Of a stretch of DNA of 11,553 nucleotides, positions 1-11,301 are shown piece after piece (the first letter of the stretch is position 1; the number at the start of each line of letters is the position of its first letter). The position numbers and the translations under genes are program-made. The notes beneath the pieces are model-generated. The model did no database searches. It was not told the DNA's origin and was given only the letters and a program-made list of their open reading frames with translations. Location of the stretch: IMG/VR virus record IMGVR_UViG_3300015179_000018, positions 1-11,553 of that record; one strand, written 5' to 3'. Source of the DNA: a virus (taxonomy: Duplodnaviria > Heunggongvirae > Uroviricota > Caudoviricetes).

Positions 1-19
1 ACGTGTGCTCTTCCGATCT
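1..19. other. Sequencing adapter remnant (Illumina TruSeq-type, ...ACGTGTGCTCTTCCGATCT)
   Basis: Bases 1-19 read acgtgtgctcttccgatct, which is the 3' end of the common Illumina adapter/read primer sequence as I recall it. Not biological sequence. Confidence 0.85.
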
Positions 20-133
20 AAAACAAAGCCCGGCAATGCACTACGGTCACGGCTGGATCATGGGAGAGGATGGTAAACGCTGGCATCCATGTCATTCACA
101 AGATGAATTGCTGTCTGAATTGACCACGAGAAA

Positions 134-373
134 ATGGAGAAAGTCCAAATGTATGCGGCAGAAAGTGAAGTGGTTTATCAGTTTCGTTACAGAGGGGAGA
201 GTTATTCAGTACCTGAAGATGATTTGCTCTGTTGCTATCCGTCGTTGTCGGGCGATGGTAGCTACTTTTTCACGCTAAAGGATGGAACCTTTATACGTGG
301 TGAAAAAGTACAAGAAGTGATGCGTATAAAGACATCACCTCTTGAACGTTATCGGCGAAGTATTTATCGGTAA
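134..373 (+). CDS. Hypothetical small protein (79 aa)
   Basis: ORF in track, ATG start, ends TAA at 371-373, convergent with the 364-612 minus-strand ORF with about 10 bp 3' overlap. No recognisable motifs; AT-rich region. Weak RBS (gaga) upstream. Confidence 0.3.
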   Translation: MEKVQMYAAESEVVYQFRYRGESYSVPEDDLLCCYPSLSGDGSYFFTLKDGTFIRGEKVQEVMRIKTSPLERYRRSIYR

Positions 374-612
374 CGATCTATCAGTGTCTGTATCAGATGA
401 GTGAATTCTTGTTGTTTAACCGAACCTAAAGGAAGTTTGTTTAATTCTTCGCGGAGGAGCTCAAAAAATGCAGATTGATTTGCTGAGTCAGTTCGAAATA
501 AGGAGTGGATCAGACCTGAAACAAGAATTCGTTGAACAGCAACCTCATCGCGAAGACTGGAGATCTCGTTTTCAAGTTGCTCTAAACGCTCTCTTTCAAC
601 CGGGTTCAACAT
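364..612 (-). CDS. Hypothetical small alpha-helical protein (82 aa)
   Basis: ATG at 610-612 (minus strand) preceded by a good RBS (reverse complement of 616-626 gives AGAAGGAA, about 7 nt upstream). Protein has charged/hydrophobic heptad-like periodicity (ERERLEQLENEISSLRDEVAVQRILV). Function unknown. Confidence 0.4.
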   Translation of the reverse strand: MLNPVERERLEQLENEISSLRDEVAVQRILVSGLIHSLFRTDSANQSAFFELLREELNKLPLGSVKQQEFTHLIQTLIDRYR

Positions 613-693
613 TGATGATTCCTTCTAGCTATCAATATGTTGGTAATGGATCATATCAAAAATTTTTTAGTAGATGTGTTGTGGGATGCATAA

Positions 694-1862: not shown

Positions 1863-2716
1863 GTACCATCCTGAAATGGGCGGGTAATAAAACTGCCATT
1901 ATGTCCGAACTGAAAAAACATCTTCCTGCTGGCCCGCGACTGGTTGAACCTTTCGCGGGTTCCTGTGCTGTGATGATGGAGACGGATTACCCCAGCTATC
2001 TTGTTGCGGATATTAATCCTGATTTAATCAACCTCTATAAAAAGGTTGCTGCTGATTGCGAGGCGTTTATATCTCGTGCCAGAGCTTTATTTGAGGAAGC
2101 AAACAGGGAGTTGGCTTATTACAACATAAGGCAGGAGTTTAATTACTCCACTGAAATTACTGATTTCATGAAAGCGGTATATTTCCTGTATCTCAATCGT
2201 CATGGTTACCGTGGGTTATGTCGTTATAACAAGAGCGGGCATTTCAACATTCCATACGGTAATTATAAAAATCCGTATTTCCCTGAAAAAGAAATTCGCG
2301 CATTTGCAGAGAAAGCCCAGCGAGCAACGTTTATCTGCGCCAGCTTTGATGAAACGCTGGCGATGCTGCAGGTGGGGGATGTGGTGTATTGCGATCCGCC
2401 TTATGACGGTACGTTTTCCGGCTATCACACTGACGGCTTCACTGAAGATGACCAGTATCACCTGGCATCTGTTCTTGAATATCGATCATCAGAAGGTCAT
2501 CCAGTCATTGTTTCTAACAGTGACACATCCCTGATCCGTTCGCTGTATCGAAATTTCACTCACCACTACATCAAGGCAAAACGCAGCATCGGCGTGTCGG
2601 CTGGCGAGAGTAAATCTGCAACAGAAATCATCGCTGTTTCTGGGGCGCGCTGCTGGGTGGGATTTGATCCTTCGCGTGGCGTGGATAGTTCTGCCGTGTA
2701 CGGAGTGCGTGCATGA
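1859..2716 (+). CDS. dam: DNA adenine methyltransferase, Dam/D12 class (N6-adenine, likely GATC-specific)
   Basis: ATG 1859 with GGAGG RBS (1847-1851); the ORF-track start at 1787 is upstream in the same frame. N-terminal KWAGNK and FAGSCAV (AdoMet-binding FxGxG) plus catalytic DPPY (VYCDPPYDG) are hallmark Dam-family motifs. Stop TGA 2714-2716 overlaps gpA ATG 2713. Confidence 0.9.
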
Positions 2717-5127
2717 GCCATGCTGATATGAACAACTGCAGCGGCTTTAACGAGGCCGCCGCAGCATTCTCATGGAACAGCCCGAAAAAGGCTATTAACC
2801 CTTATCTGGACCCGGCGGAAGTTGCGCCGGTTTCTGCGCTTTCAAACCTGATCACTCTGTACGCTGCCGATAACGAGCAGGAACAACTGCGCCGCGAGGC
2901 ACTGAGTGATCAGGTTTGGGAGCGTTATTTCTTTAATGAATCCCGTGATCCTGTCCAGCGCGAAATGGAGCAGGATAAGCTCATTAGCCGGGCAAAGTTG
3001 GCGCATGAGCAGCAGCGTTTTAACCCGGACATGGTCATTCTGGCAGACGTTAACGCCCAGCCTTCCCATATCAGCAGGCCGCTGATGCAACGTATTGAAT
3101 ACTTCAGCAGCCTTGGCAGGCCAAAGGCTTATTCCCGCTATTTGCGTGAGACGATTAAGCCATGTCTGGAACGGCTGGAGCATGTACGCGACAGTCAGCT
3201 ATCCACTTCTTTTCGCTTTATGGCAAGCCATGAAGGGCTGGACGGCCTGCTGATCCTGCCTGAAATGAGTCAGGATCAGGTGAAACGCCTGTCCACCCTT
3301 GTTGCTGCGCATATGAGCATGTGCCTTGATGCAGCTTGTGGCGATTTGTATGCCACCGATGACGTTAAGCCAGAAGAAATCCGCAAGACATGGGAAAAGG
3401 TGGCAGCAGAAACCCTGCGACTGGATGTCATACCGCCTGCGTTTGAGCAACTCCGCCGGAAAAGAAACCGCCGTAAACCCGTGCCCTATGAACTCATTCC
3501 GGGTTCGCTGGCGCGTATGTTGTGCGCCGATTGGTGGTACCGGAAATTATGGAAGATGCGTTGCGAATGGCGGGAAGAGCAGTTGCGTGCTGTTTGCCTG
3601 GTCAGCAAAAAAGCATCTCCCTATGTCAGCTATGAAGCCGTGATGCATAAACGTGAGCAGCGCCGTAAGTCGCTGGAGTTTTTCCGTTCTCATGAACTGG
3701 TGAACGAAGACGGCGACACGCTGGACATGGAGGATGTGGTAAACGCCAGCAGCAGCAACCCTGCGCATCGCCGCAATGAGATGATGGCCTGTGTTAAAGG
3801 TCTGGAGCTTATCGCGGAAATGCGCGGTGACTGCGCCGTTTTCTACACCATCACCTGTCCGTCACGTTTCCATTCCACGCTAAATAACGGCAGGCCCAAC
3901 CCGACCTGGACAAATACGACGGTAAGACAAAGCAGTGATTATCTGGTCGGCATGTTTGCTGCATTTCGTAAGGCGATGCACAAAGCCGGATTGCGCTGGT
4001 ATGGCGTGCGGGTGGCTGAGCCGCATCATGACGGTACAGTTCACTGGCACCTGTTGTGTTTTATGCGCAAAAAAGATCGCCGCACCATTACTGCTTTGTT
4101 GCGTAAGTTTGCCATTCGTGAAGACCGCGAGGAGCTGGGTAATAACACGGGACCACGCTTTAAGTCTGAGCTGATAAACCCGCGCAAAGGTACGCCAACA
4201 AGCTACATCGCGAAATACATCAGTAAGAACATTGACGGGCGTGGTCTGGCTGGCGAGATCAGCAAGGAAACGGGTAAATCCCTGCGTGATAACGCTGAAT
4301 ACGTTAATGCCTGGGCGTCTCTGCATCGTGTTCAGCAATTCCGCTTCTTTGGCATTCCGGGGCGTCAGGCTTACCGTGAACTGCGATTGCTGGCTGGTCA
4401 GGCGGCAAGGCAACAGGGGGACAAAAAAGCAGGTGCGCCGGTACTGGATAACCCGCGCCTTGATGCAATCCTGGCTGCTGCTGATGCTGGTTGTTTTGCC
4501 ACCTACATCATGAAGCAGGGCGGCGTACTGGTTCCCCGCAAATATCACCTCATCAGAACTGCTTATGAAATCAACGAAGAACCGACCGCATATGGCGATC
4601 ACGGTATTCGTATTTATGGCATCTGGTCACCCATTGCAGAGGGCAAGATCTGCACTCATGCGGTGAAGTGGAAAATGGTTCGTAAGGCCGTTGACGTTCA
4701 GGAGGCGGCAGCTGACCAGGGCGCTTGCGCCCCTTGGACTCGTGGCAATAACTGTCCCCTTGCTGAAAATTTGAACCAACAAGGGAAAGACAAATCAGCT
4801 GATGGGGACTCCAGAACGGATATTACCCGTATGAATGACAAGGAGTTGCACGATTACCTGCACAGTATGAGCAAAAAAGAGCGCCGGGAACTGGCTGCAA
4901 GGTTACGCCAGGTGAAACCGAAACGGCGTAAAGACTACAAACAGCGAATTACAGACCATCAGCGACAGCAGCTCGTCTATGAACTGAGGTCCAGAGGATT
5001 TGATGGCAGCGAGAAAGAGGTCGATTTACTCCTTCGCGGCGGCAGTATTCCGTCAGGAGCAGGCCTGCGTATCTTCTATCGGAGCCAGCGTTTGCAGGAA
5101 GATGACAAGTGGCGGAACCTGTATTAA
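2713..5127 (+). CDS. A: Rolling-circle replication initiation endonuclease, P2 gpA family
   Basis: 804 aa. HUH motif ([10 protein letters not shown]) and paired active-site tyrosine motif (YIAKYISKN) typical of P2 gpA-type Rep proteins. Follows dam in a coupled operon, as in P2-like phages. Confidence 0.9.
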
Positions 5128-5196
5128 TTACGCGGGTTAACAATTAGTGCTCTTAATAATACCAGGCATATCAGGCTGATGAACGTAAAAAAACGT

Positions 5197-5239
5197 TTTA
5201 CATCAGTAAGATTATTATATACTGTAAATATAAACAGTG
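5197..5239 (+). promoter_or_regulatory. LexA (SOS) operator overlapping a candidate sigma70 promoter for the downstream small-ORF/DinI-like genes
   Basis: TACTGTAAATATAAACAGTG at 5220-5239 is a CTGT-N8-ACAG palindrome close to the LexA consensus TACTGT(AT)4ACAGTA. Candidate -35 TTTACA (5197-5202) and -10 TATACT (5218-5223) overlap the box. A strong RBS AGGAGG (5271-5276) precedes ATG 5281. Confidence 0.65.
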
Positions 5240-5280
5240 GTTATGTATACAGTGTTGCTTGTGGTGTCATAGGAGGAAAG

Positions 5281-5469
5281 ATGCAGGACTATTTTTTGGA
5301 GTCTTTGAAGCTCCAGCGCATTGATTTTTTTCTTAAGCTTGTAGCGGCTAGTGAGTGTAGTGATGAAGAGAAGGGGCTGGCTCTGCAGTGGGTTTCTGAA
5401 CTGACAGATGAACTCATGGCAAAAATCAGAACCCACGAATACAACCGCTCAATGGATGTCATCAGCTGA
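5281..5469 (+). CDS. Small SOS-inducible protein (62 aa), possible Tum-like antirepressor N-terminal module
   Basis: ATG 5281 preceded by AGGAGG and by the LexA box; the ORF-track ORF 5179-5469 extends upstream across the operator and so is too long. Function is inferred only from position before the DinI-like gene (phage 186 SOS operon analogy). Confidence 0.5.
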   Translation: MQDYFLESLKLQRIDFFLKLVAASECSDEEKGLALQWVSELTDELMAKIRTHEYNRSMDVIS

Positions 5470-5479
5470 GGTGACTTTT

Positions 5480-5713
5480 ATGCGCATTGAAATAATGATC
5501 GATAAAGAGCAGAAGATTAGCCAGTCTACACTGGACGCCCTTGAATCCGAGCTTTACCGCAATCTGCGCCCCCTGTATCCCAAAACGGTAATTCGTATCC
5601 GCAAAGGTAGCTCTAATGGTGTGGAACTGACCGGACTGCAACTGGACGAAGAAAGAAAACAAGTGATGAAAATTATGCAGAAGGTGTGGGAAGACGACAG
5701 CTGGCTGCATTAA
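5480..5713 (+). CDS. DinI-like protein (SOS/RecA modulator family; Tum C-terminal-like)
   Basis: 77 aa starting MRIEIMIDKEQKIS...LDALESEL...VWEDDSWLH; closely parallels E. coli DinI (MRIEVTIAKTSPLP...IDALAGEL...TWESADDWF) from memory. RBS GAGGTGA 6 nt upstream. Start is an internal ATG of ORF-track ORF 5408-5713. Confidence 0.85.
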   Translation: MRIEIMIDKEQKISQSTLDALESELYRNLRPLYPKTVIRIRKGSSNGVELTGLQLDEERKQVMKIMQKVWEDDSWLH

Positions 5714-5872
5714 GAAACGTTGCTGGCGTCTGAACTTGCTTCTGGCGTCAGCAAGGTTGAACAACGAGTACAGTGAGGCGTTAGGTGTGGCGTTTATTTG
5801 ATGAGTGAACGCCCGTTCTGCGACAGGTTCGGAGATTAAGGTTGAAACTACGGGAAAAATACCATCTTTTTC

Positions 5873-6298
5873 CTACTTAATTGAGTCCAGTAACAAGTTA
5901 CAGTTACTCTCATTGTAGAGAGAACGAGCAATTAGTGTTACCTGCTTTCCATTCATTCCCGGCTTATCCCATAACACAGCTTCTTGCGACGCCACAAATT
6001 CAGCATAATCAATTATGCGTTGTTCGTGATCTGGTTCCTCATAGCCAAAGTATGAGAGCGCATCGTTGTAAGCGTGGTAAGCTGCTTTCTGTAATATCTT
6101 GATATCGGCTGTAGGTACTTGCTCCGTGTAGCTAGGATCTAATTGTGTGCTACTGCCATAGAATGCACATGAAAGGTAAGATATTGATTTCTGTTGAGCT
6201 TTAGTTCCTTTCTCATAGTTTTTAGCTGTTACCGCCTGAACTGGGACGCTAACAAAGCTTGCAACCAGAATTAAAATTAATACGTAAAAGCTTTTCAT
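5873..6298 (-). CDS. Secreted/periplasmic protein of unknown function with N-terminal Sec signal peptide (141 aa)
   Basis: N-terminus MKSFYVLILILVASFVSVPVQA-VTAK: positively charged n-region, hydrophobic core, AxA-like cleavage site (VQA), no lipobox Cys. RBS GAGG upstream on the minus strand. Gene is visibly AT-richer than flanking phage genes. Confidence 0.7.
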   Translation of the reverse strand: MKSFYVLILILVASFVSVPVQAVTAKNYEKGTKAQQKSISYLSCAFYGSSTQLDPSYTEQVPTADIKILQKAAYHAYNDALSYFGYEEPDHEQRIIDYAEFVASQEAVLWDKPGMNGKQVTLIARSLYNESNCNLLLDSIK

Positions 6299-6571
6299 TT
6301 TGACCTCAGCCGAAACGTTAGAGAGACTATCGAAATTTGTAAAACCCGTGGCGATTCAGTTTGAGATCCTCCCCCTTACATGATTTTTAATCAAATATAT
6401 GCTTTTGTAAGCATACCTGTTAACCGAATTATTTATTTTTAGAGATCTTCCGACATACTGATTATGCCCGCTGAGGAGTTCACCTTGCGTAAAGTCCGAT
6501 TCGCTTTACTCGTCTGTGCATGTCTATACTGCATGAGATTGCATGATCGTTTGAGGATCGTTTTTGCTAAG

Positions 6572-6596
6572 GCCCGCCAGTTCTGGCGGGCTTTTG
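6572..6596 (+). terminator. GC-rich hairpin followed by T-run (intrinsic-terminator-like), + strand
   Basis: gcccgcca-gttc-tggcgggc perfect 8-bp stem followed by ttttg. No obvious upstream + strand gene; may terminate an uncharacterised transcript or be part of the cos/packaging region. Confidence 0.45.
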
Positions 6597-6640
6597 CGTA
6601 GATCATGCACCTGCATGAAAACCACTACATAAAGCGGGCA

Positions 6641-6659
6641 GGCGTGGCGGGGATACGAG
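6641..6659. other. Candidate cos (cohesive end) site of the P2/186 type
   Basis: GGCGTGGCGGGGATACGAG at 6641-6659 closely resembles the 19-nt cohesive ends I recall for P2 (GGCGAGGCGGGGAAAGCAC) and 186 (GGCGTGGCGGGGAAAGCAT). It forms a GC-rich island in an AT-rich intergenic region between the replication side and the portal/terminase side. Confidence 0.45.
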
Positions 6660-6811
6660 CGCGCGCTAAGTCATATAAGAGTTATATATTGATTTGATTG
6701 CTGGACATGCATACAGTATCGCTCTATCATCTAATAAATCTTAGAGTATTTGACAATGTTTGGATAAAATGGAACCTAACTTATTCATAATCCGCTAAAC
6801 AGGGATGTCAG

Positions 6812-7726
6812 ATGCCATACCAATTGGTAGAGCTTAGCCCCGTAGCTAACGATCTTGAACAGTTAGGAACCAAAGAGAAGTTTTGGTTCTATTTCTCCGA
6901 TGACACTGTAAATTTGCAGTTGTTTAAGTACTCTAGGCCAGGTACTGGCGAGCATTGGTCTGAAAAGTGTGCTGCTGAGTTATGTCATTTGCTTAACATT
7001 CCACATGCTAGCTATGATTTGGCGCGATACAATGGTCGATTCGGTGTGGTGACTCAGAATATCATTCCATCTGGTTTCCGGATGGTAATGGGAAATGAAG
7101 TGCTTCACAGTTCGACATTCGATTATCCTGGGCCTTTACAAGCCGGGGAAAAGCCGGTAAGGGTCAGAGAACACACTGTCACAAGGGTATTGGGTTGTTT
7201 GGATAGGGAATCTATCAAGCCTCCTCCGAGTGTATATGATCTAACCGGGCTAAATGCAGCAGATGTATTTTGTGGATATTTGATGCTCGATGCACTTGTG
7301 AGTAATCAAGATCGCCATCATGAAAATTGGGCGATCATGCTTAACAATGAAACTGGTGAGCAGTTTTTGTGTCCAACATACGATCATGCCGCTAGTTTAG
7401 GAAGGGAGATGTTAGATGATGAGCGTAACGAACGGCTTAATACTAAAGATAAAAATCGACAAATCCCATGTTTTGTAAGAAAAGCTCGCTCTGAGCTATT
7501 CAAAGCAAAAACTGATAAAAAGCCCTTGCTGACCGTTGAAGCATTTCAACATGCAGTTGAAGGGAGAGTTGCCGCTCGCGACCATTGGTTAGGTAAGTTG
7601 AGCGTTTTAACAGAAGATTCCATTACAGATGTGTTTAACCAAGTGCCTTCATCGTGTATATCCGACAGTGCACGTAGATTTGCAACGTTAATGGTAATGG
7701 AAAATCGCAGAAGGTTACTAGAATGA
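6812..7726 (+). CDS. HipA-family-like Ser/Thr protein kinase core (HipT-like, lacking HipA N-terminal subdomain); candidate toxin/defence effector
   Basis: 304 aa. Gly-rich loop LGTKEKF (res 18-24) resembles the HipA P-loop (VAGAQEKT). Catalytic-loop-like SNQDRHHENW (res 164-173, nt 7301-7330) fits the N-x-D-x-H-x-x-N pattern of HipA/CtkA kinases, with downstream YDHAAS as a putative metal-binding Asp. RBS AGGGA before ATG 6812. Stop TGA overlaps the next ATG (ATGA at 7723-7726). Confidence 0.6.
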   Translation: MPYQLVELSPVANDLEQLGTKEKFWFYFSDDTVNLQLFKYSRPGTGEHWSEKCAAELCHLLNIPHASYDLARYNGRFGVVTQNIIPSGFRMVMGNEVLHSSTFDYPGPLQAGEKPVRVREHTVTRVLGCLDRESIKPPPSVYDLTGLNAADVFCGYLMLDALVSNQDRHHENWAIMLNNETGEQFLCPTYDHAASLGREMLDDERNERLNTKDKNRQIPCFVRKARSELFKAKTDKKPLLTVEAFQHAVEGRVAARDHWLGKLSVLTEDSITDVFNQVPSSCISDSARRFATLMVMENRRRLLE

Positions 7727-8463
7727 CTAATACAAACTCCGTTTACGTCGCATGGCAGGCACCAGATACCAGAGACTGGCATGTTGTTGGTAACTTGCAA
7801 GAGCGCAAATCGGGGTATGTTTTCAGGTATACCAAAGGTGCTCTTAAATCTACTAAATTTACAAAGTTTAGCGGCATGAGTGATGTTCGTGAAACTTATG
7901 TTTCGGAAGAATTGTTTCCTCTTTTTAAAAATCGCCTTTTATCACCGAGACGTCCAGAGTATCCGAGTTTCATTAAATGGCTTGGATTTGAAGAAGATAA
8001 GGTAAATCCTATCGATATTCTTGCTCGCTCGGGAGGCTTACGAAGCACTGATCAGCTGCAGATTTTCAAAAAAATTGATGTTGATTCTGATGGTAACTTT
8101 GAGCATTTTTTCTTCTTACATGGACTTGGTTACTTAAATAGCTTAGCTAATGCTCGTGTATCTGAATTGAAACCGGGGCAAATTTTGCGTCTTTGCTTGG
8201 ATCTTCAAAATGAATACGATGGGGATGCTGTTGTCGTTCGTGCAGATAAACCAGCTGAAATCGTTGGTTACTGCCCCAGGTATTTAAGTAATGATATCAA
8301 GAAGATGTTATTGGATGATCCAAAATCAATCACTTTAACGGTCGAAAAGATTAGCGATGATGCTCCTCATAACTATCGGTTATTATGTAAATTATCAGGA
8401 GTACTAAGCCAAGCCTGTCAATCGACGCTGATTCCTCAGGATGAGTTTGAACCTATTGAGTAA
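7723..8463 (+). CDS. Kinase-partner protein: N-terminal HipA-N/HipS-like region plus C-terminal HIRAN-like domain (tentative)
   Basis: 246 aa, translationally coupled to the kinase gene. C-terminal segment GLGY...LRLCLDLQNEYDGDAVVVRADKPAEIVGYCPRYLSNDIKKMLLD parallels the HIRAN signature (VGLRYY...LQRDPNNPYDKNAIKV...VGHLKKELAGALAYIMD). The N-terminal 110 aa (VYVAW..VVGNL..YVFRY..LFPLFKNRLLSPRR..ILARSGG) loosely resembles the HipA N-terminal subdomain. Both by eye only. Confidence 0.6.
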   Translation: MTNTNSVYVAWQAPDTRDWHVVGNLQERKSGYVFRYTKGALKSTKFTKFSGMSDVRETYVSEELFPLFKNRLLSPRRPEYPSFIKWLGFEEDKVNPIDILARSGGLRSTDQLQIFKKIDVDSDGNFEHFFFLHGLGYLNSLANARVSELKPGQILRLCLDLQNEYDGDAVVVRADKPAEIVGYCPRYLSNDIKKMLLDDPKSITLTVEKISDDAPHNYRLLCKLSGVLSQACQSTLIPQDEFEPIE

Positions 8464-8471
8464 ATGAAGAA

Positions 8472-8497
8472 AAGCCACCAAACGGTGGCTTTTCTTA
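8472..8497. terminator. Bidirectional intrinsic terminator between the convergent cargo operon and portal gene Q
   Basis: aagccacc-aaac-ggtggctt hairpin (8472-8491) with T-rich tract on the + strand (tttctt) and, on the reverse complement, ttttctt after the same stem. Lies exactly between the stop at 8463 (+) and the stop at 8498 (-). Confidence 0.6.
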
Positions 8498-9535
8498 TTA
8501 TGGGACTATATCTAGCGAGTAGGTATTAAACTGTATCGCCTCCTTGCCAAGCCAATCATTCATCTCCTGTAATCGCTTTTGTAGTGGCATTAGTTCATTT
8601 CGCACAAAAACTCGACTCGCCTTCTCTACATCCCCAAACCCACCGACATTATTAGGCATAATCCCCATCATCTGAGGCGGTACGCGGTGTGCAGCCATCA
8701 TGTCGTCCCGGCTCACGTTCTTGATGTTCAGAAATTCATCTTTCGCTGCGACTTCTGACAACGGGATGATCTGAAGCCCGTCCTTTTTGCCGTTAGGCGA
8801 GTACATAAACAGGTTGCGGAAGTTGCCAGGGCCTTTGGCGCTTTTCATCGCGTTGCGGAGGTTGTTCACATCTTCCTGGTTCTGCGCGGCGTCGGTCATA
8901 TACATGATGAAGCCTGCATGACTGCCGTTAATGTAATACTTGCGGCGGAACAGCGTGGCAGACTCGTTGAGCAGGGCGGATGGAATAGCAGAAAGATAAC
9001 CGGGCAGGCCGTAGATCTCCTGGTTGATGTCCGGTTCCATCAGATGAAAGATGCTGCCTTTCGTGAACTGATATGGCTGCGTGGTCATACCGTATTGCAC
9101 AAACCAGTAGGTATCCAGGTCTAACCCGCGTCGGGTGTATTTTGCCAAGGCAGGTTCAAGGGCGATAACTTCACCGAAGCGGTTCGTGCGTTTCTCCAGG
9201 TAGGCGTTACCAAATACCAGATAGTCCTGCACAAAACGCGAAAAAGCCTGCTGGCTGAGCAGCGGGTGAGGGATGTAGGTGCTGGTCAGAATGTTGCACT
9301 TTACTGCAATCGGGGAACTATGATGAACGGCAGCGCGGAAGGTGCGCGCCAGTCCGTCAAAGCTGACGGGCGGCTCATACCAGCGGTCCATCTGTACGCA
9401 TTCCACATAATCCAGCAGTTCTCGGCGGTCCAGAACAGGAACGGGATCGCCGAAGCTGAATGCTTCGGCTGTAGTTTGACTTTTAAGCTGGATCTGTTTC
9501 GTCGCCGCAGCGCGGTTCTTCTTACTCTTTCCCAT
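8498..9535 (-). CDS. Q: Portal protein (P2 gpQ family)
   Basis: About 345 aa, minus strand, immediately downstream of and overlapping (TGATG) the terminase ATPase gene, the conserved P2 P-Q arrangement. ATG at 9533-9535 with GGAG RBS; the ORF-track start at 9538 is a TTG one codon upstream. Confidence 0.88.
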   Translation of the reverse strand: MGKSKKNRAAATKQIQLKSQTTAEAFSFGDPVPVLDRRELLDYVECVQMDRWYEPPVSFDGLARTFRAAVHHSSPIAVKCNILTSTYIPHPLLSQQAFSRFVQDYLVFGNAYLEKRTNRFGEVIALEPALAKYTRRGLDLDTYWFVQYGMTTQPYQFTKGSIFHLMEPDINQEIYGLPGYLSAIPSALLNESATLFRRKYYINGSHAGFIMYMTDAAQNQEDVNNLRNAMKSAKGPGNFRNLFMYSPNGKKDGLQIIPLSEVAAKDEFLNIKNVSRDDMMAAHRVPPQMMGIMPNNVGGFGDVEKASRVFVRNELMPLQKRLQEMNDWLGKEAIQFNTYSLDIVP

Positions 9536-11301
9536 CAAAAAATCTCCACAATATTGCTGGTATTGGCGGATTCGCCCTGCAGCGGTTCGTTAAACAGTGC
9601 GTGCATCGTTGCCCAGGCCAGATCGGCGTGGCTGGCTTCTTCGCTGCGGCTGGCTTCATAGGTCGGGCGGTTGCCACTGGCGGTGGTGGCGCGACGGATT
9701 GCCATAAAGGACTGCGCTATGTCGGTGTGTCCGGCGTCAAACTCCAGACGGCGGTGGCTGATAATGTCGTAGGCCTTGAGTACCAGGGCGTTTTTAACGT
9801 TGGGGTTGTAGACAAACTCCCGGACGGCAGGAAAAAACGCTTTCACGTTCTCGTAAACCCCGTGACCAACGCCGGTTGAGTCGATACCGATATAGGTCAC
9901 GTTGTACTGTTCGGTCAGTTTTTTGATGGCGTCAGCCTGGGCGCGGAAGTCCATTCCGCGCCACTGGTGACGCTCAAGAATGCGGAACTTACCGCCCGGC
10001 ACGGCTGGCGGCGCCACCACCACGCATCCGGCGCTGTCGCCGTTCTGCGTACCTTTCGCCGGGTCATATCCGATCCACACTTCGCGCCAGCCAAACGGGC
10101 GCAGGGCCAGTGCATGAAAGTCGGTCCAGACTTCCCAACTGTCCACCATGCACGCCTGCAGCTCGCTGAGTGGGAACACAGACGCGAGATCGTCCACGAA
10201 CTCACACATCAGCAGGTTTTGGTATTCGTCCGGGCTGTACTCCATGCGCAACTGGTCGAGGTCGAACAGGTTACAGCCGCCGCGCACCGCATCTTCCACA
10301 GTGACTATCTGGCGGTACTGCCCGTCTGCGCACAGCAGGCCGGGGGCCAGATTGCTGTGGGACAGGTCGATGTCCACCTTATCGGCTTTGTTGCGCCCTC
10401 GGTTGAACAGCGCACCGGACCAGAACGGATAAGCACTGTGTGTCAGGCTGGATGGCGTGGAAAAATAGGTTTGTCGCCATTTTTTGTGAATAGCCATACC
10501 GGAAGCCACTTTGCGCAGCTCCTGGAATTTCGGTATCCAGAAATATTCATCCAGATACAGGTTGCCGTGGTAACTCTGGGCCGTGCGGGCATTGGTGCCG
10601 AGGAAGTACAGCGTGGCCCCGTTAGGAAGCACCATCGGATCGCCTTTCAGCTCCACCTCCACTTCTTTGGCGAAGTCGATGATGTACTGCTTAAAGACGT
10701 GGGCCTGAGCCTTGCTGGCGGAAAGGAAAATCTGGTTACGCCCGGTTAGCAGGGCGTCAATCAGGGCTTCACGGGCAAAATAGAAGGTCGCGCCGATCTG
10801 GCGTGACTTCAGCAGGTTGCGGATGCGGTTGGTTTTTCCGGCTTCCCACCAGTGGCGCTGGTAGTTGAACATGGAGGAATGGAAGATTTCTTCCAACTTC
10901 TCAATCTGTTCATCGGTGAAAACGTTCTTTTCCGGCTGACGGCGCGGGCCTTTGTTGCGGTTGGCGACGTTAGGGTTTAAGTCGGCTTCGTTGCCGCCAT
11001 TGTTAAACTTGCCGATCCGCGCATGGCGCTCCGACTGGCGCGCCAGCAGGTCAATCTCTTTGAAATCTTTCCCTTCTTTGTGCTCCTTCATAATGAGCTG
11101 GCAGTAGCGTGCGGCGGTGGTGAGCTGCATCTGATCCAGCGGCCCATAGTCACCCCACTTGTCGCGTTTTTTCCAGCTGTGAACGGTTGCAACTTTCTCG
11201 CCCAGCATTTCAGCAATGCGAGCTACGCGGTATCCCTGAAAGTACAGCAGCATGGCCTGCCGACGGGGATCGAGATCTGCGGGTGTCAGTGTGGTGTTCA
11301 T
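9535..11301 (-). CDS. P: Terminase large (ATPase) subunit, P2 gpP family
   Basis: 588 aa, minus strand, divergent from the O start. N-terminal HTH-like segment (LLYFQGYRVARIAEMLGEKVATVHSWKKR) typical of terminase DNA-binding N-termini; size and position match P2 gpP. The true start could be the internal ATG at 11251-11253 (M17). Confidence 0.88.
   Translation of the reverse strand: MNTTLTPADLDPRRQAMLLYFQGYRVARIAEMLGEKVATVHSWKKRDKWGDYGPLDQMQLTTAARYCQLIMKEHKEGKDFKEIDLLARQSERHARIGKFNNGGNEADLNPNVANRNKGPRRQPEKNVFTDEQIEKLEEIFHSSMFNYQRHWWEAGKTNRIRNLLKSRQIGATFYFAREALIDALLTGRNQIFLSASKAQAHVFKQYIIDFAKEVEVELKGDPMVLPNGATLYFLGTNARTAQSYHGNLYLDEYFWIPKFQELRKVASGMAIHKKWRQTYFSTPSSLTHSAYPFWSGALFNRGRNKADKVDIDLSHSNLAPGLLCADGQYRQIVTVEDAVRGGCNLFDLDQLRMEYSPDEYQNLLMCEFVDDLASVFPLSELQACMVDSWEVWTDFHALALRPFGWREVWIGYDPAKGTQNGDSAGCVVVAPPAVPGGKFRILERHQWRGMDFRAQADAIKKLTEQYNVTYIGIDSTGVGHGVYENVKAFFPAVREFVYNPNVKNALVLKAYDIISHRRLEFDAGHTDIAQSFMAIRRATTASGNRPTYEASRSEEASHADLAWATMHALFNEPLQGESANTSNIVEIF

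What the first reader, a model, noticed from the sequence alone, without database searches (positions are those of the whole stretch)
5197..5713. LexA-controlled module: near-consensus SOS box in front of a small ORF plus a DinI-like gene (186 Tum-like induction module, split into two ORFs)
A CTGT-N8-ACAG LexA operator (5220-5239) overlaps the predicted -10 of a promoter driving a 62-aa ORF and a DinI-like protein with its own RBS. In coliphage 186 the LexA-repressed operon encodes the Tum antirepressor, whose C-terminal portion is DinI-like as I recall. Here the equivalent sequence is organised as two separate ORFs in different frames, 10 bp apart, which may be a genuine two-protein arrangement or a frameshifted tum. 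This module would tie prophage induction to the host SOS response.
Basis: partly seen in the sequence, partly recalled or inferred. Interest (0 to 1): 0.55.

Follow-up and report, generated by a model that had tools for sequence, protein, structure and literature searches.

The report
SOS-controlled tumA/tumB prophage induction module
This is the already-known switch that lets a P2/Fels-2-type prophage of E. coli wake up when the host's DNA is damaged: a LexA-repressed promoter driving a small antirepressor gene (tumA) and a separate DinI-like gene (tumB).

Summary
A strong LexA box (5220-5239) sits on a promoter in front of a 62-aa ORF (5281-5469). A DinI-family gene (5480-5713) follows 10 nt later in another frame.

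- The 62-aa protein is homologous to residues 1-44 of 186 Tum (profile-profile E 7e-10).
- It is under strong purifying selection (dN/dS about 0.07).
- In many relatives it occurs without any DinI gene.

The arrangement is already annotated as tumA/tumB in phage PSP3 and described for Fels-2. In E. coli HS prophage DuoHS, a published in-frame "tum" deletion abolishes mitomycin induction, as does lexA(Ind-). Its primers match this window exactly at the start and stop of the 62-aa ORF. The module occurs in about 1,100 of 5,426 complete E. coli genomes.

Modest additions from this work:
- The operator is a colicin-type double overlapping SOS box (second box 5235-5254).
- Tum sequence class tracks the N-terminal DNA-binding domain of CI, not its C-terminal domain.
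- A second conserved LexA box precedes the downstream hipIN (HipA-like kinase/HIRAN) cargo operon.

Verdict: real, ordinary, already known.

The parts
5197..5202 (+). -35 hexamer TTTACA of the tum (p95-like) promoter, preceded by a conserved A-tract (5187-5193)
   Evidence: Read from the sequence. It is conserved as TTTAC-A in 32 unique upstream sequences from different species. It occupies the same position as the annotated p95 -35 of phage 186. The role is inferred, not measured.
5220..5225 (+). Probable -10 hexamer TACTGT, lying inside SOS box 1
   Evidence: The same hexamer is annotated as the p95 -10 in the 186 record, and the spacer here is 17 nt. It matches TATAAT at only 3 of 6 positions, so the generic promoter scan did not report it.
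5220..5239 (.). SOS box 1 (LexA operator) TACTGTAAATATAAACAGTG
   Evidence: It has 3 mismatches to the consensus, against 0 of 200 shuffles, and scores 23.2 bits on the PWM. An equivalent box lies upstream of the tumA-type gene in 10 of 10 phages examined. By CTG-N10-CAG criteria it is present in 33 of 36 species-level loci; by PWM score, a main box of at least 14 bits in 34 of the 35 loci scored.
5235..5254 (.). SOS box 2, CAGTGGTTATGTATACAGTG, overlapping box 1 by 5 nt (colicin-type double operator)
   Evidence: It scores 13.3 bits in the window and 14-20 bits in relatives. The ATACAGT half-site is conserved across species. The 35-nt double operator aligns almost base for base with the operators of colicin N and of a pore-forming colicin. 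Colicin operators of this kind are reported to bind two LexA dimers (PMC2994835).
5272..5277 (+). Ribosome-binding site AGGAGG of tumA
   Evidence: Read from the sequence; conserved as AGGAGG(G/A)AA in relatives.
5281..5469 (+). tumA: 62-aa antirepressor, predicted two-helix hairpin
   Evidence: ORF. It is identical to WP_001154434.1 of E. coli LR-71-1 and 98.4% identical to Fels-2 STM2728. Homology to 186 Tum residues 1-44 is shown. dN/dS is 0.07. The published DuoHS tum-deletion primers match 5261-5283 and 5467-5489 exactly. The AlphaFold2 model has helices at 2-23 and 28-61, pLDDT 88.
5468..5471 (+). Ribosome-binding site GAGG of tumB, overlapping the tumA stop codon (TGA 5467-5469)
   Evidence: Read from the sequence. 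The junction of 9-12 nt is conserved wherever the DinI-like gene is present. Translational coupling is an inference.
5480..5713 (+). tumB: 77-aa DinI-family protein
   Evidence: Pfam PF06183 E 6.6e-23. 78% identical to PSP3 TumB and 41% to 186 Tum residues 71-145. Matches the solved E. coli DinI structure 1GHH over its full length, E 2.7e-6. It scores below the NCBIfam DinI equivalog cut-off (42.7 against 111 bits).
5716..5758 (+). Stable hairpin just after tumB; possible operon end, a counterpart of 186 t95a
   Evidence: RNA fold of 5705-5875 gives a long stem. No U-tract follows, and the whole region is not significantly more stable than shuffles (z -1.66). 186 has a partial terminator at the equivalent place. 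This assignment is weak.

Best explanation
The region is the SOS (tum) operon of a Fels-2-like, P2-family prophage of E. coli.

Proposed mechanism:
1. In a healthy lysogen, LexA occupies a double overlapping SOS operator (5220-5254) that covers the -10 region and the start of the transcript, keeping the operon silent.
2. DNA damage activates RecA, and LexA cleaves itself.
3. The promoter then fires and two proteins are made from one mRNA.
4. TumA (62 aa, a two-helix hairpin) is the antirepressor. By homology with the N-terminal part of 186 Tum, it binds the prophage CI repressor and stops it binding its operators, so the lytic promoter is released and the prophage is induced.
5. TumB (77 aa, DinI family) is a separate, optional partner that most likely modulates RecA filaments and so tunes the SOS signal.

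In phage 186 the same two modules are fused into one polypeptide. Here, as in PSP3 and Fels-2, they are two genes.

Basis for each step:
- Shown here at sequence level: operator, promoter architecture, coding status, homology.
- Shown by others for the orthologue: requirement of tumA and of cleavable LexA for induction.
- Inferred: direct TumA-CI binding in this family, the RecA-modulating role of TumB, and occupancy of box 2 by LexA.
For: Context: the module lies directly downstream of replication gene A and upstream of the cargo, portal and terminase genes, as in 186, PSP3 and Fels-2.

Operator. Its double-box form matches colicin operators (and PMC2994835).

Homology:
- TumA to 186 Tum residues 1-44. 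186 Tum 1-70 hits the window's PHROG 698 at 6.7e-6, and the window protein hits the PSP3 TumA PHROG 1993 at 0.0022.
- TumB to 186 Tum residues 71-145 and to PSP3 TumB.

The small ORF is a real gene:
- dN/dS is 0.07 over 30 distinct alleles from different species.
- 493 protein clusters were found at 90% identity and 66 representatives at 50%.
- It stands alone, without a DinI gene, in ESSI-2, ESSI2_ev015, YenM_324 and ENT90 and in 16 of 36 species-level loci.

Literature:
- The PSP3 record annotates tumA as 'similar to 5' end 186 tum; UV induction of prophage' and tumB as 'similar to dinI and 3' end of 186 tum'.
- PMC3121763 states that Fels-2 and PSP3 have tum split by a stop codon, and that in PSP3 the upstream gene carries the antirepressor activity.
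- In E. coli HS DuoHS, an in-frame tum deletion and lexA(Ind-) each abolish mitomycin C induction (PMC12055606).
- The deletion primers of that study fuse exactly the ATG and TGA of the window's 62-aa ORF and keep the tumB junction (0 mismatches at 5261-5283 and 5467-5489).
Against: - No experiment was done on this sequence.
- The window does not contain cI, so I cannot tell whether this prophage's own repressor is TumA-sensitive or whether the prophage is intact.
- Direct binding to CI has been demonstrated only for the fused 186 Tum. For PSP3 it rests on a personal communication cited in the literature.
- The -10 is a poor match to the sigma-70 consensus, and the generic promoter scan did not call this promoter.
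- Box 2 has G instead of the near-invariant C in its left half and scores only 13.3 bits in this window.
- The role of TumB is inferred from family membership only.
Confidence: 0.9

Rival explanations
1. The two ORFs are the remains of a single 186-type tum gene broken by a frameshift or nonsense mutation, making it a pseudogene.
For: The two halves correspond in order to the two halves of 186 Tum, and they lie 10 nt apart in different frames.
Against: The split, with its own stop codon, 9-12-nt junction and ribosome-binding site, is conserved in 66 phage records. It is also conserved in the species-level loci where an intact DinI-like ORF follows (20 of 36 loci have a DinI-like match, two of them truncated or broken) and in about 1,100 E. 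coli genomes. tumA has dN/dS 0.07. tumA occurs alone in several genera. Among database homologues of the window's small protein, almost all are short (35-133 aa) and the few longer entries are gene-call extensions or artefacts; none of those inspected is a fusion to a DinI domain. The fused form is restricted to the 186-type lineage.
Confidence: 0.02
2. The DinI-like TumB is the real inducer, for example by stimulating RecA-dependent events. On this view the small upstream ORF is only a leader or coupling ORF needed for tumB expression.
For: The tumA stop codon overlaps the tumB ribosome-binding site, and a weak hairpin spans the junction. A tumA deletion could therefore in principle alter tumB translation. 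The 186 record says truncated, DinI-like Tum forms 'modulate SOS induction'.
Against: Many inducible-type relatives keep the LexA box and tumA but have no DinI gene at all. The DuoHS deletion keeps the ATG-TGA and the native tumB junction, yet abolishes induction. tumA is conserved as a protein (dN/dS 0.07), not merely as an ORF. In PSP3 the antirepressor activity maps to the upstream gene. The junction hairpin is no more stable than shuffled sequence (z -0.69).
Confidence: 0.04
3. In this particular prophage the module is functional as an SOS gene pair but does not induce the resident prophage. This could be because TumA does not match the resident CI or because the prophage is defective. Its effect would then be on co-resident P2-like prophages or on host SOS dynamics.
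For: cI is outside the window. Identical TumA is found with very different CI proteins, including 299-aa forms with tandem HTH domains. The Fels-2-like prophage BTP5 expresses tum strongly, yet no infectious phage was detected with or without mitomycin C (PMC7067206).
Against: In every sampled case the CI N-terminal domain belongs to the class that accompanies this TumA type. The nearly identical E. coli HS prophage is inducible through this gene.
Confidence: 0.08

Closest known systems
PSP3 tumA/tumB and Fels-2 STM2728/STM2726.1 (split tum operons of P2-family phages)
   Same: The architecture is identical: gene A, then a LexA box on the promoter, then a small antirepressor gene of about 60 aa, then a separate 77-aa DinI-family gene. 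The window's TumA is 98.4% identical to Fels-2 STM2728, and its TumB is 78% identical to PSP3 TumB.
   Different: PSP3 TumA belongs to a different sequence class: pairwise BLASTP finds nothing and only a weak PHROG cross-hit links them. PSP3 also has a single SOS box. There is essentially no difference from Fels-2 in the module itself. Only the downstream cargo differs.
Coliphage 186 Tum and the p95 SOS operon
   Same: Both have a LexA-repressed promoter with the box over a TACTGT -10, located downstream of gene A. The N-terminal 44 residues are homologous to TumA and the C-terminal 75 residues to TumB.
   Different: 186 fuses both modules into one 146-aa protein with internal restarts. It has one SOS box, and orf97 follows it in the operon.
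E. coli HS prophage DuoHS tum (Phollow study)
   Same: The sequence is identical at both ends of the gene; the deletion primers match the window exactly. Induction there depends on this gene and on cleavable LexA.
   Different: None detected in the module. It is a different host strain, and the rest of that prophage was not compared.
Colicin operators with two overlapping SOS boxes
   Same: The 35-nt arrangement is the same: box 1 is a CTG-N10-CAG site, and box 2 starts within its CAGTG. The sequence is nearly identical to the colicin N and pore-forming colicin operators.
   Different: It controls a prophage antirepressor rather than a toxin/lysis operon, and the promoter -35 region differs.
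Gifsy-type dinI-antirepressor operons (gfoA, gftA) of Salmonella
   Same: They are LexA-controlled operons that pair a DinI homologue with a small trans-acting antirepressor (PMC3121763).
   Different: The gene order is reversed, with dinI first. The antirepressors and their target repressors belong to a different group of repressors (the gfoR/gtgR, DicA/RacR type), as described in that paper. I did not compare the sequences.

Membership tests
Tum / TumA antirepressor family of P2-like phages | Sequence homology to the N-terminal (non-DinI) part of 186 Tum | tested here: met
   BLASTP to the intermediate YenM_324 protein gives E 7e-10, and that protein hits 186 Tum 1-70. hhalign gives 96.5% probability, E 7.4e-10. 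PHROG cross-hits agree. Direct BLASTP to 186 Tum finds nothing.
Tum / TumA antirepressor family of P2-like phages | Located downstream of replication gene A in a P2-family genome, behind a LexA box | tested here: met
Tum / TumA antirepressor family of P2-like phages | Required for SOS (mitomycin C or UV) induction of the prophage | not testable with these tools
   Shown for the orthologue in E. coli HS DuoHS, whose deletion end-points match this window exactly.
Tum / TumA antirepressor family of P2-like phages | Binds CI and prevents operator binding | not testable with these tools
   Demonstrated for 186 Tum (Shearwin 1998, as cited in PMC3121763). The only evidence here is indirect: Tum class co-varies with the class of the CI N-terminal domain.
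186-type fused Tum (single polypeptide) | Antirepressor and DinI-like parts in one reading frame | tested here: not met
   There is a stop codon at 5467-5469, a 10-nt gap and a frame change. The split is conserved.
DinI family (PF06183) | Match to the family profile above the curated threshold over the full domain | tested here: met
   81.3 bits against a cut-off of 24.2, covering profile positions 1-63 of 63. Full-length match to the solved DinI structure 1GHH.
DinI family (PF06183) | Orthologue of chromosomal DinI (NCBIfam equivalog NF007893) | tested here: not met
   42.7 bits against a cut-off of 111. It is a phage DinI-like paralogue.
DinI family (PF06183) | Binds and modulates RecA filaments | not testable with these tools
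   Inferred from family membership only.
LexA (SOS) operator of Enterobacteria | CTG-N10-CAG palindrome close to the TACTGTATATATATACAGTA consensus, overlapping a promoter | tested here: met
   with the position relative to the -35 and -10 read. Conserved across species.
LexA (SOS) operator of Enterobacteria | Bound by LexA; transcription is derepressed on LexA cleavage | not testable with these tools
   lexA(Ind-) blocks induction of the orthologous prophage. No binding data exist for this operator.
Colicin-type double overlapping SOS boxes | A second box offset by 15 nt, sharing CAGTG with box 1 | tested here: met
   Alignment to colicin operators. Present in 52 of 56 unique upstream sequences from phages with identical TumA. 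Counted as present in 20 of the 34 species-level loci that have a main box; a 21st, L104, carries the same arrangement but was counted with the two boxes swapped. Absent in 186, PSP3, the ESSI-type phages and the Yersinia phages.
Colicin-type double overlapping SOS boxes | Binds two LexA dimers | not testable with these tools
   Reported for colicin operators (PMC2994835).

The most novel reading that the evidence does not exclude
TumA of this class recognises the conserved N-terminal HTH (DNA-binding) domain of CI rather than its oligomerisation domain. One TumA allele can therefore inactivate CI repressors that differ in immunity type and architecture, including single-HTH 210-aa forms and tandem-HTH forms of about 300 aa. 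That would make it a trans-acting antirepressor able to co-induce heterologous P2-like prophages in polylysogens. The colicin-type double SOS operator would keep this potentially lethal, broad-acting protein fully silent until a strong SOS signal arrives.
Probability: 0.3. Interest if true: 0.45.

Novelty: already known. Interest (0 to 1): 0.2.

Why it matters
The module decides when a very common family of E. coli, Salmonella and Klebsiella prophages switches to lytic growth. It therefore bears on when these prophages kill the host or spread their cargo genes after antibiotics or inflammation. None of that is new.

The practical value lies in annotation. The antirepressor gene is labelled 'hypothetical protein' or 'unknown function' in RefSeq, PHROGs and NCBIfam, and has no Pfam family, although a published deletion of its orthologue shows its role.

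Three smaller observations give concrete, testable hypotheses but do not change the picture:
- the colicin-type double operator;
- Tum class tracking the CI DNA-binding domain;
- a second, conserved SOS box in front of the hipIN cargo.

Tried and rejected
- Pairwise BLASTP of the 62-aa protein against 186 Tum and PSP3 TumA, and of PSP3 TumA against 186 Tum, found nothing. Homology appeared only through intermediates and profiles.
- Pfam, NCBIfam and PADLOC have no family for TumA. A PDB sequence search with the family profile found nothing.
- Foldseek of the AlphaFold2 model against PDB and BFVD gave only generic helical hairpins with E above 0.3, which is uninformative.
- The generic promoter scan did not report the tum promoter, because TACTGT is a weak -10.
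- The hairpin across the tumA/tumB junction is no more stable than shuffled sequence (z -0.69), so I dropped it as a regulatory element. The hairpin after tumB is only marginal (z -1.66).
- The 96-aa reading of the small ORF (ATG at 5179) is rejected. It would start upstream of the promoter and operator, and that extension is not conserved.
- The 80 viral contigs retrieved were all chosen for 100% protein identity, so their all-synonymous variation is circular evidence. dN/dS was taken from the species-level set instead.
- Bunny et al. 2002 (PMC151935), the primary Fels-2 paper, is not held. Its content is cited through PMC3121763.
- A literal text search for the colicin operator sequence found no paper. 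The comparison was made on plasmid DNA instead.
- The Salmonella SOS-regulon paper does not mention this locus.
Full report
**What is there**

The window is part of a P2-family (Peduoviridae) prophage. It carries, in order:
- a Dam methylase (1787-2716);
- replication protein A (2713-5127, Pfam Phage_GPA E 7e-127);
- the region of interest;
- a cargo segment;
- the portal gene Q (8498-9538, minus strand) and the large terminase gene P (9535-11301, minus strand).

The closest complete genome is E. coli LR-71-1, 99.1% identical over 5100-8500.

The region of interest reads as follows:
- -35 TTTACA at 5197-5202, then a 17-nt spacer;
- TACTGTAAATATAAACAGTG at 5220-5239;
- AGGAGG at 5272-5277;
- a 62-codon ORF at 5281-5469;
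- 10 nt containing GAGG;
- a 77-codon ORF at 5480-5713 in another frame.

Note that the DinI-like ATG is at 5480.

**Is the LexA box more than chance?**

Yes.
- It is the only site in the window within 3 mismatches of the 20-nt consensus, against 0 of 200 shuffles. The 16-nt core alone would be weak evidence, since 35 of 200 shuffles contain one.
- I built a PWM from 28 E. coli LexA sites listed from memory, so the matrix is approximate. On it the box scores 23.2 bits, above 23 of the 28 known sites and above the best score in 200 shuffled windows, 18.2.
- The stronger argument is comparative. A box with at most 3 mismatches lies just upstream of the homologous small gene in all ten phages examined: 186, PSP3, Fels-2, ESSI-2, ESSI2_ev015, three Yersinia phages, ENT90 and the window.
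- The box is also present in 33 of 36 loci from different bacterial species.
- In an alignment of 32 distinct upstream sequences, the A-tract, the -35, the box and the ribosome-binding site are conserved while the spacer and 5' UTR vary.
- The promoter architecture copies the annotated p95 of phage 186, where the -10 is the TACTGT of the box.

**The operator is double**

The PWM also flagged CAGTGGTTATGTATACAGTG at 5235-5254, which shares CAGTG with box 1.
- The right half-site ATACAGT is conserved across species.
- The second box scores 14-20 bits in most relatives. It is present in 52 of 56 distinct upstream sequences of phages with identical TumA, and in 20 of the 34 species-level loci that have a main box, with a 21st, L104, missed only because the count took its other box as the main one. 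It is absent from 186, PSP3, the ESSI-type phages and the Yersinia phages.
- A search of plasmids with the Fels-2 operator returned more than 1,100 records, mostly small mobilisable plasmids. The two inspected carry it directly upstream of the colicin N gene and of a pore-forming colicin gene.
- The 35-nt operators align almost base for base:
  - window: TACTGTAAATATAAACAGTGGTTATGTATACAGTG
  - colicin N: TACTGTATATAAAACCAGTGGTTATATGTACAGTG

By analogy, this tum promoter is probably very tightly shut. That step is inferred.

**The two genes**

TumB is a DinI-family protein.
- Pfam E 6.6e-23.
- Full-length match to the solved E. coli DinI structure 1GHH.
- 78% identical to PSP3 TumB and 41% identical to residues 71-145 of 186 Tum.
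- It is a paralogue, not the chromosomal DinI: it falls below the NCBIfam equivalog cut-off.

The 62-aa protein has no Pfam, NCBIfam or PADLOC family, and BLASTP does not link it to 186 Tum or PSP3 TumA. Homology is nevertheless clear.
- It aligns to the small LexA-controlled protein of Yersinia phage YenM_324 (32% over 44 residues, E 7e-10). That protein in turn matches 186 Tum 1-70.
- A profile of the window's family against a profile of the 186-type N-termini gives 96.5% probability, E 7.4e-10, residues 1-44 on both sides.
- 186 Tum 1-70 hits the window's PHROG (698) at 6.7e-6, and the window protein hits the PSP3 TumA PHROG (1993) at 0.0022.
- The shared motif is LQRI-x-L-x2-(R/K)L-x6-C-x4-(K/R)-x-LA-x2-W-x2-EL.
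- AlphaFold2 predicts a two-helix hairpin (2-23 and 28-61, pLDDT 88). Fold searches find nothing specific.

**Genuine split or broken gene?**

It is a genuine split.
- The two-ORF form is found in 66 phage records and in about 1,100 of 5,426 complete E. coli genomes, where it is annotated 'hypothetical protein' plus 'DinI-like family protein'.
- In the species-level set, 20 of 36 loci have a DinI-like match downstream. Where the ORF is intact it is always separate, starting 9-12 nt after the tumA stop.
- tumA has dN/dS 0.07 over 30 distinct alleles.
- tumA also occurs alone behind its LexA box, with no DinI gene, in ESSI-2, ESSI2_ev015, YenM_324, ENT90 and 16 of 36 species-level loci.

The DinI module is therefore an optional add-on, and the 186 fusion is the exception.

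**What is already known**

- The PSP3 record names the two genes tumA ('similar to 5' end 186 tum; UV induction of prophage') and tumB ('similar to dinI and 3' end of 186 tum').
- The Fels-2 record points STM2726.1 to PSP3 TumB.
- Lemire et al. 2011 state that Fels-2 and PSP3 have tum split by a stop codon, and that in PSP3 the upstream gene is the antirepressor (PMC3121763).
- Most directly, the Phollow study made an in-frame tum deletion and a lexA(Ind-) allele in E. coli HS. Each abolished mitomycin C-induced lysis and virion formation of the P2-like prophage DuoHS (PMC12055606).
- The deletion primers of that study read GTGGTGTCATAGGAGGAAAGATG-TGA and ATAGGAGGAAAGATG-TGAGGTGACTTTTATGCGCATTG. 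These match window 5261-5283 and 5467-5489 without a mismatch.

The gene they deleted is therefore the orthologue of the 62-aa ORF, with the tumB junction left intact.

**Mechanism**

- Shown at sequence level here: operator, promoter, two conserved genes, homology to both halves of Tum.
- Shown by others for the orthologue: dependence of induction on tumA and on cleavable LexA.
- Inferred: TumA binds CI and blocks operator binding, as shown biochemically only for 186 Tum; TumB acts on RecA filaments; box 2 is occupied by a second LexA dimer.

**An additional pattern: Tum class and CI**

The window lacks cI, so I looked at relatives. Phages whose TumA is 84-100% identical to the window's carry very different CI proteins, only 33-63% identical overall to Fels-2 CI. 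Some are 293-313 aa long and carry two tandem HTH domains, including the near-identical E. coli LR-71-1 prophage.

Splitting CI into domains gives this picture:

| Comparison | N-terminal HTH domain identity | C-terminal domain identity |
|---|---|---|
| Among partners of this TumA class | 60-95% (mean 70) | 20-58% (mean 30) |
| Against partners of other Tum classes | 38-57% (mean 46) | mean 27 |

Searches with the N-terminal domain alone agree.
- Every sampled phage with at least 58% identity to the Fels-2 N-terminal domain carries the Fels-2-type TumA, apart from Kosakonia Kc166BP (58%, a partial record whose Tum type is unknown) and ST11-VIM1phi8.4 (62.7%), which is not among the listed rows.
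- Every sampled phage with at least 66% identity to the 186 N-terminal domain carries a 186-type Tum.

This suggests that TumA recognises the DNA-binding domain. It is only suggestive. The sample is small, the genomes are related, and Yersinia phage YenM_201.16 has a 93% 186-like N-terminal domain with a Tum only 46% identical to 186's.

**Side observation: the cargo**

The cargo pair 6812-7726 and 7723-8463 is a short HipA-like kinase plus a HipS-like/HIRAN protein.
- It matches PADLOC candidate system PDC-M03 A/B (E 2e-122 and 3e-93).
- It has the hipIN organisation described by Gerdes et al. (PMC8262856).
- A second LexA-like box, TGCTGGACATGCATACAGTA (6699-6718, 19.8 bits), overlaps the -35 of a promoter-like site (6702-6730), 93 nt upstream of the kinase gene.
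- In 49 viral contigs encoding homologues, every distinct upstream sequence from a homologue at least 67% identical has a box of 17-25 bits, 89-113 nt upstream of the ATG. This holds even where the surrounding sequence is unrelated. The group at 56-58% identity has none.
- The hipIN paper does not mention LexA or SOS.

This looks like a real, conserved SOS operator on a candidate defence or toxin-antitoxin operon, and it deserves its own evaluation.

**Verdict**

The feature is real, correctly read by the first stage, and already known, down to a published deletion of the same gene. Interest is low. The residual value is the annotation gap and the three testable details above.

Noticed in passing
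window 6699-6718 (box), 6702-6730 (promoter-like site), 6812-7726 and 7723-8463 (genes): A second LexA-like box, TGCTGGACATGCATACAGTA (19.8 bits), overlaps the -35 of a promoter-like site upstream of a hipIN-type pair: a short HipA-like kinase plus a HipS-like/HIRAN protein (PADLOC candidate PDC-M03). A high-scoring LexA box at 89-113 nt from the ATG is kept in homologues down to 67% identity even where the flanks are unrelated, and is absent in the 56-58% group. The hipIN paper held in the library does not mention SOS control.
   Followed up: partly
L012 5055-5954 (minus strand; E. coli LR-71-1, just left of the window's equivalent); also L015 and L019: The CI repressor of the near-identical prophage is 299 aa and carries two tandem copies of the N-terminal HTH domain ahead of one C-terminal domain. 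The same is seen in Klebsiella phages 4LV2017 and ST258-KPC3phi16.2 and in PSP3 CI, whereas Fels-2 and 186 CI have one copy.
   Followed up: partly
L005 801-1013, L006 801-1025, L007 789-1001; proteins P0152, P0155, P0172, P0177, P0181: Many distant TumA-family members that lack a DinI partner end in a glycine-rich tail of the form GG-x-SGGGS-x-(F/L)Q, which the window's protein lacks. Its meaning is unknown.
   Followed up: no
window 5873-6298 (minus strand): A 141-aa ORF with a signal-peptide-like N-terminus, convergent with tumB. It has no Pfam, NCBIfam or PADLOC match and is absent from some otherwise identical prophages, so it is probably part of the variable cargo.
   Followed up: no
window about 1500-1862: An extra ORF of about 100 aa between the DksA/TraR-like gene and dam. 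The ORF list gives it as 1500-1862 from a TTG start, and the true start is probably nearer 1560. It is missing from the otherwise 99%-identical LR-71-1 prophage, which has an ASCH-domain gene elsewhere. I did not run a domain search on it.
   Followed up: no
window 1-690: The left end has only short ORFs (134-373 plus strand, 364-612 minus strand). It does not correspond to the cII/fil genes found at this position in LR-71-1 and Fels-2, so the early region is mosaic.
   Followed up: no
protein P0143 (133 aa, database homologue): An apparent long fusion homologue contains the peptide MCIRDRC. From my own knowledge this is the translation of a sequencing-adaptor sequence, so it is an assembly artefact and not a real fused Tum.
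   Followed up: no
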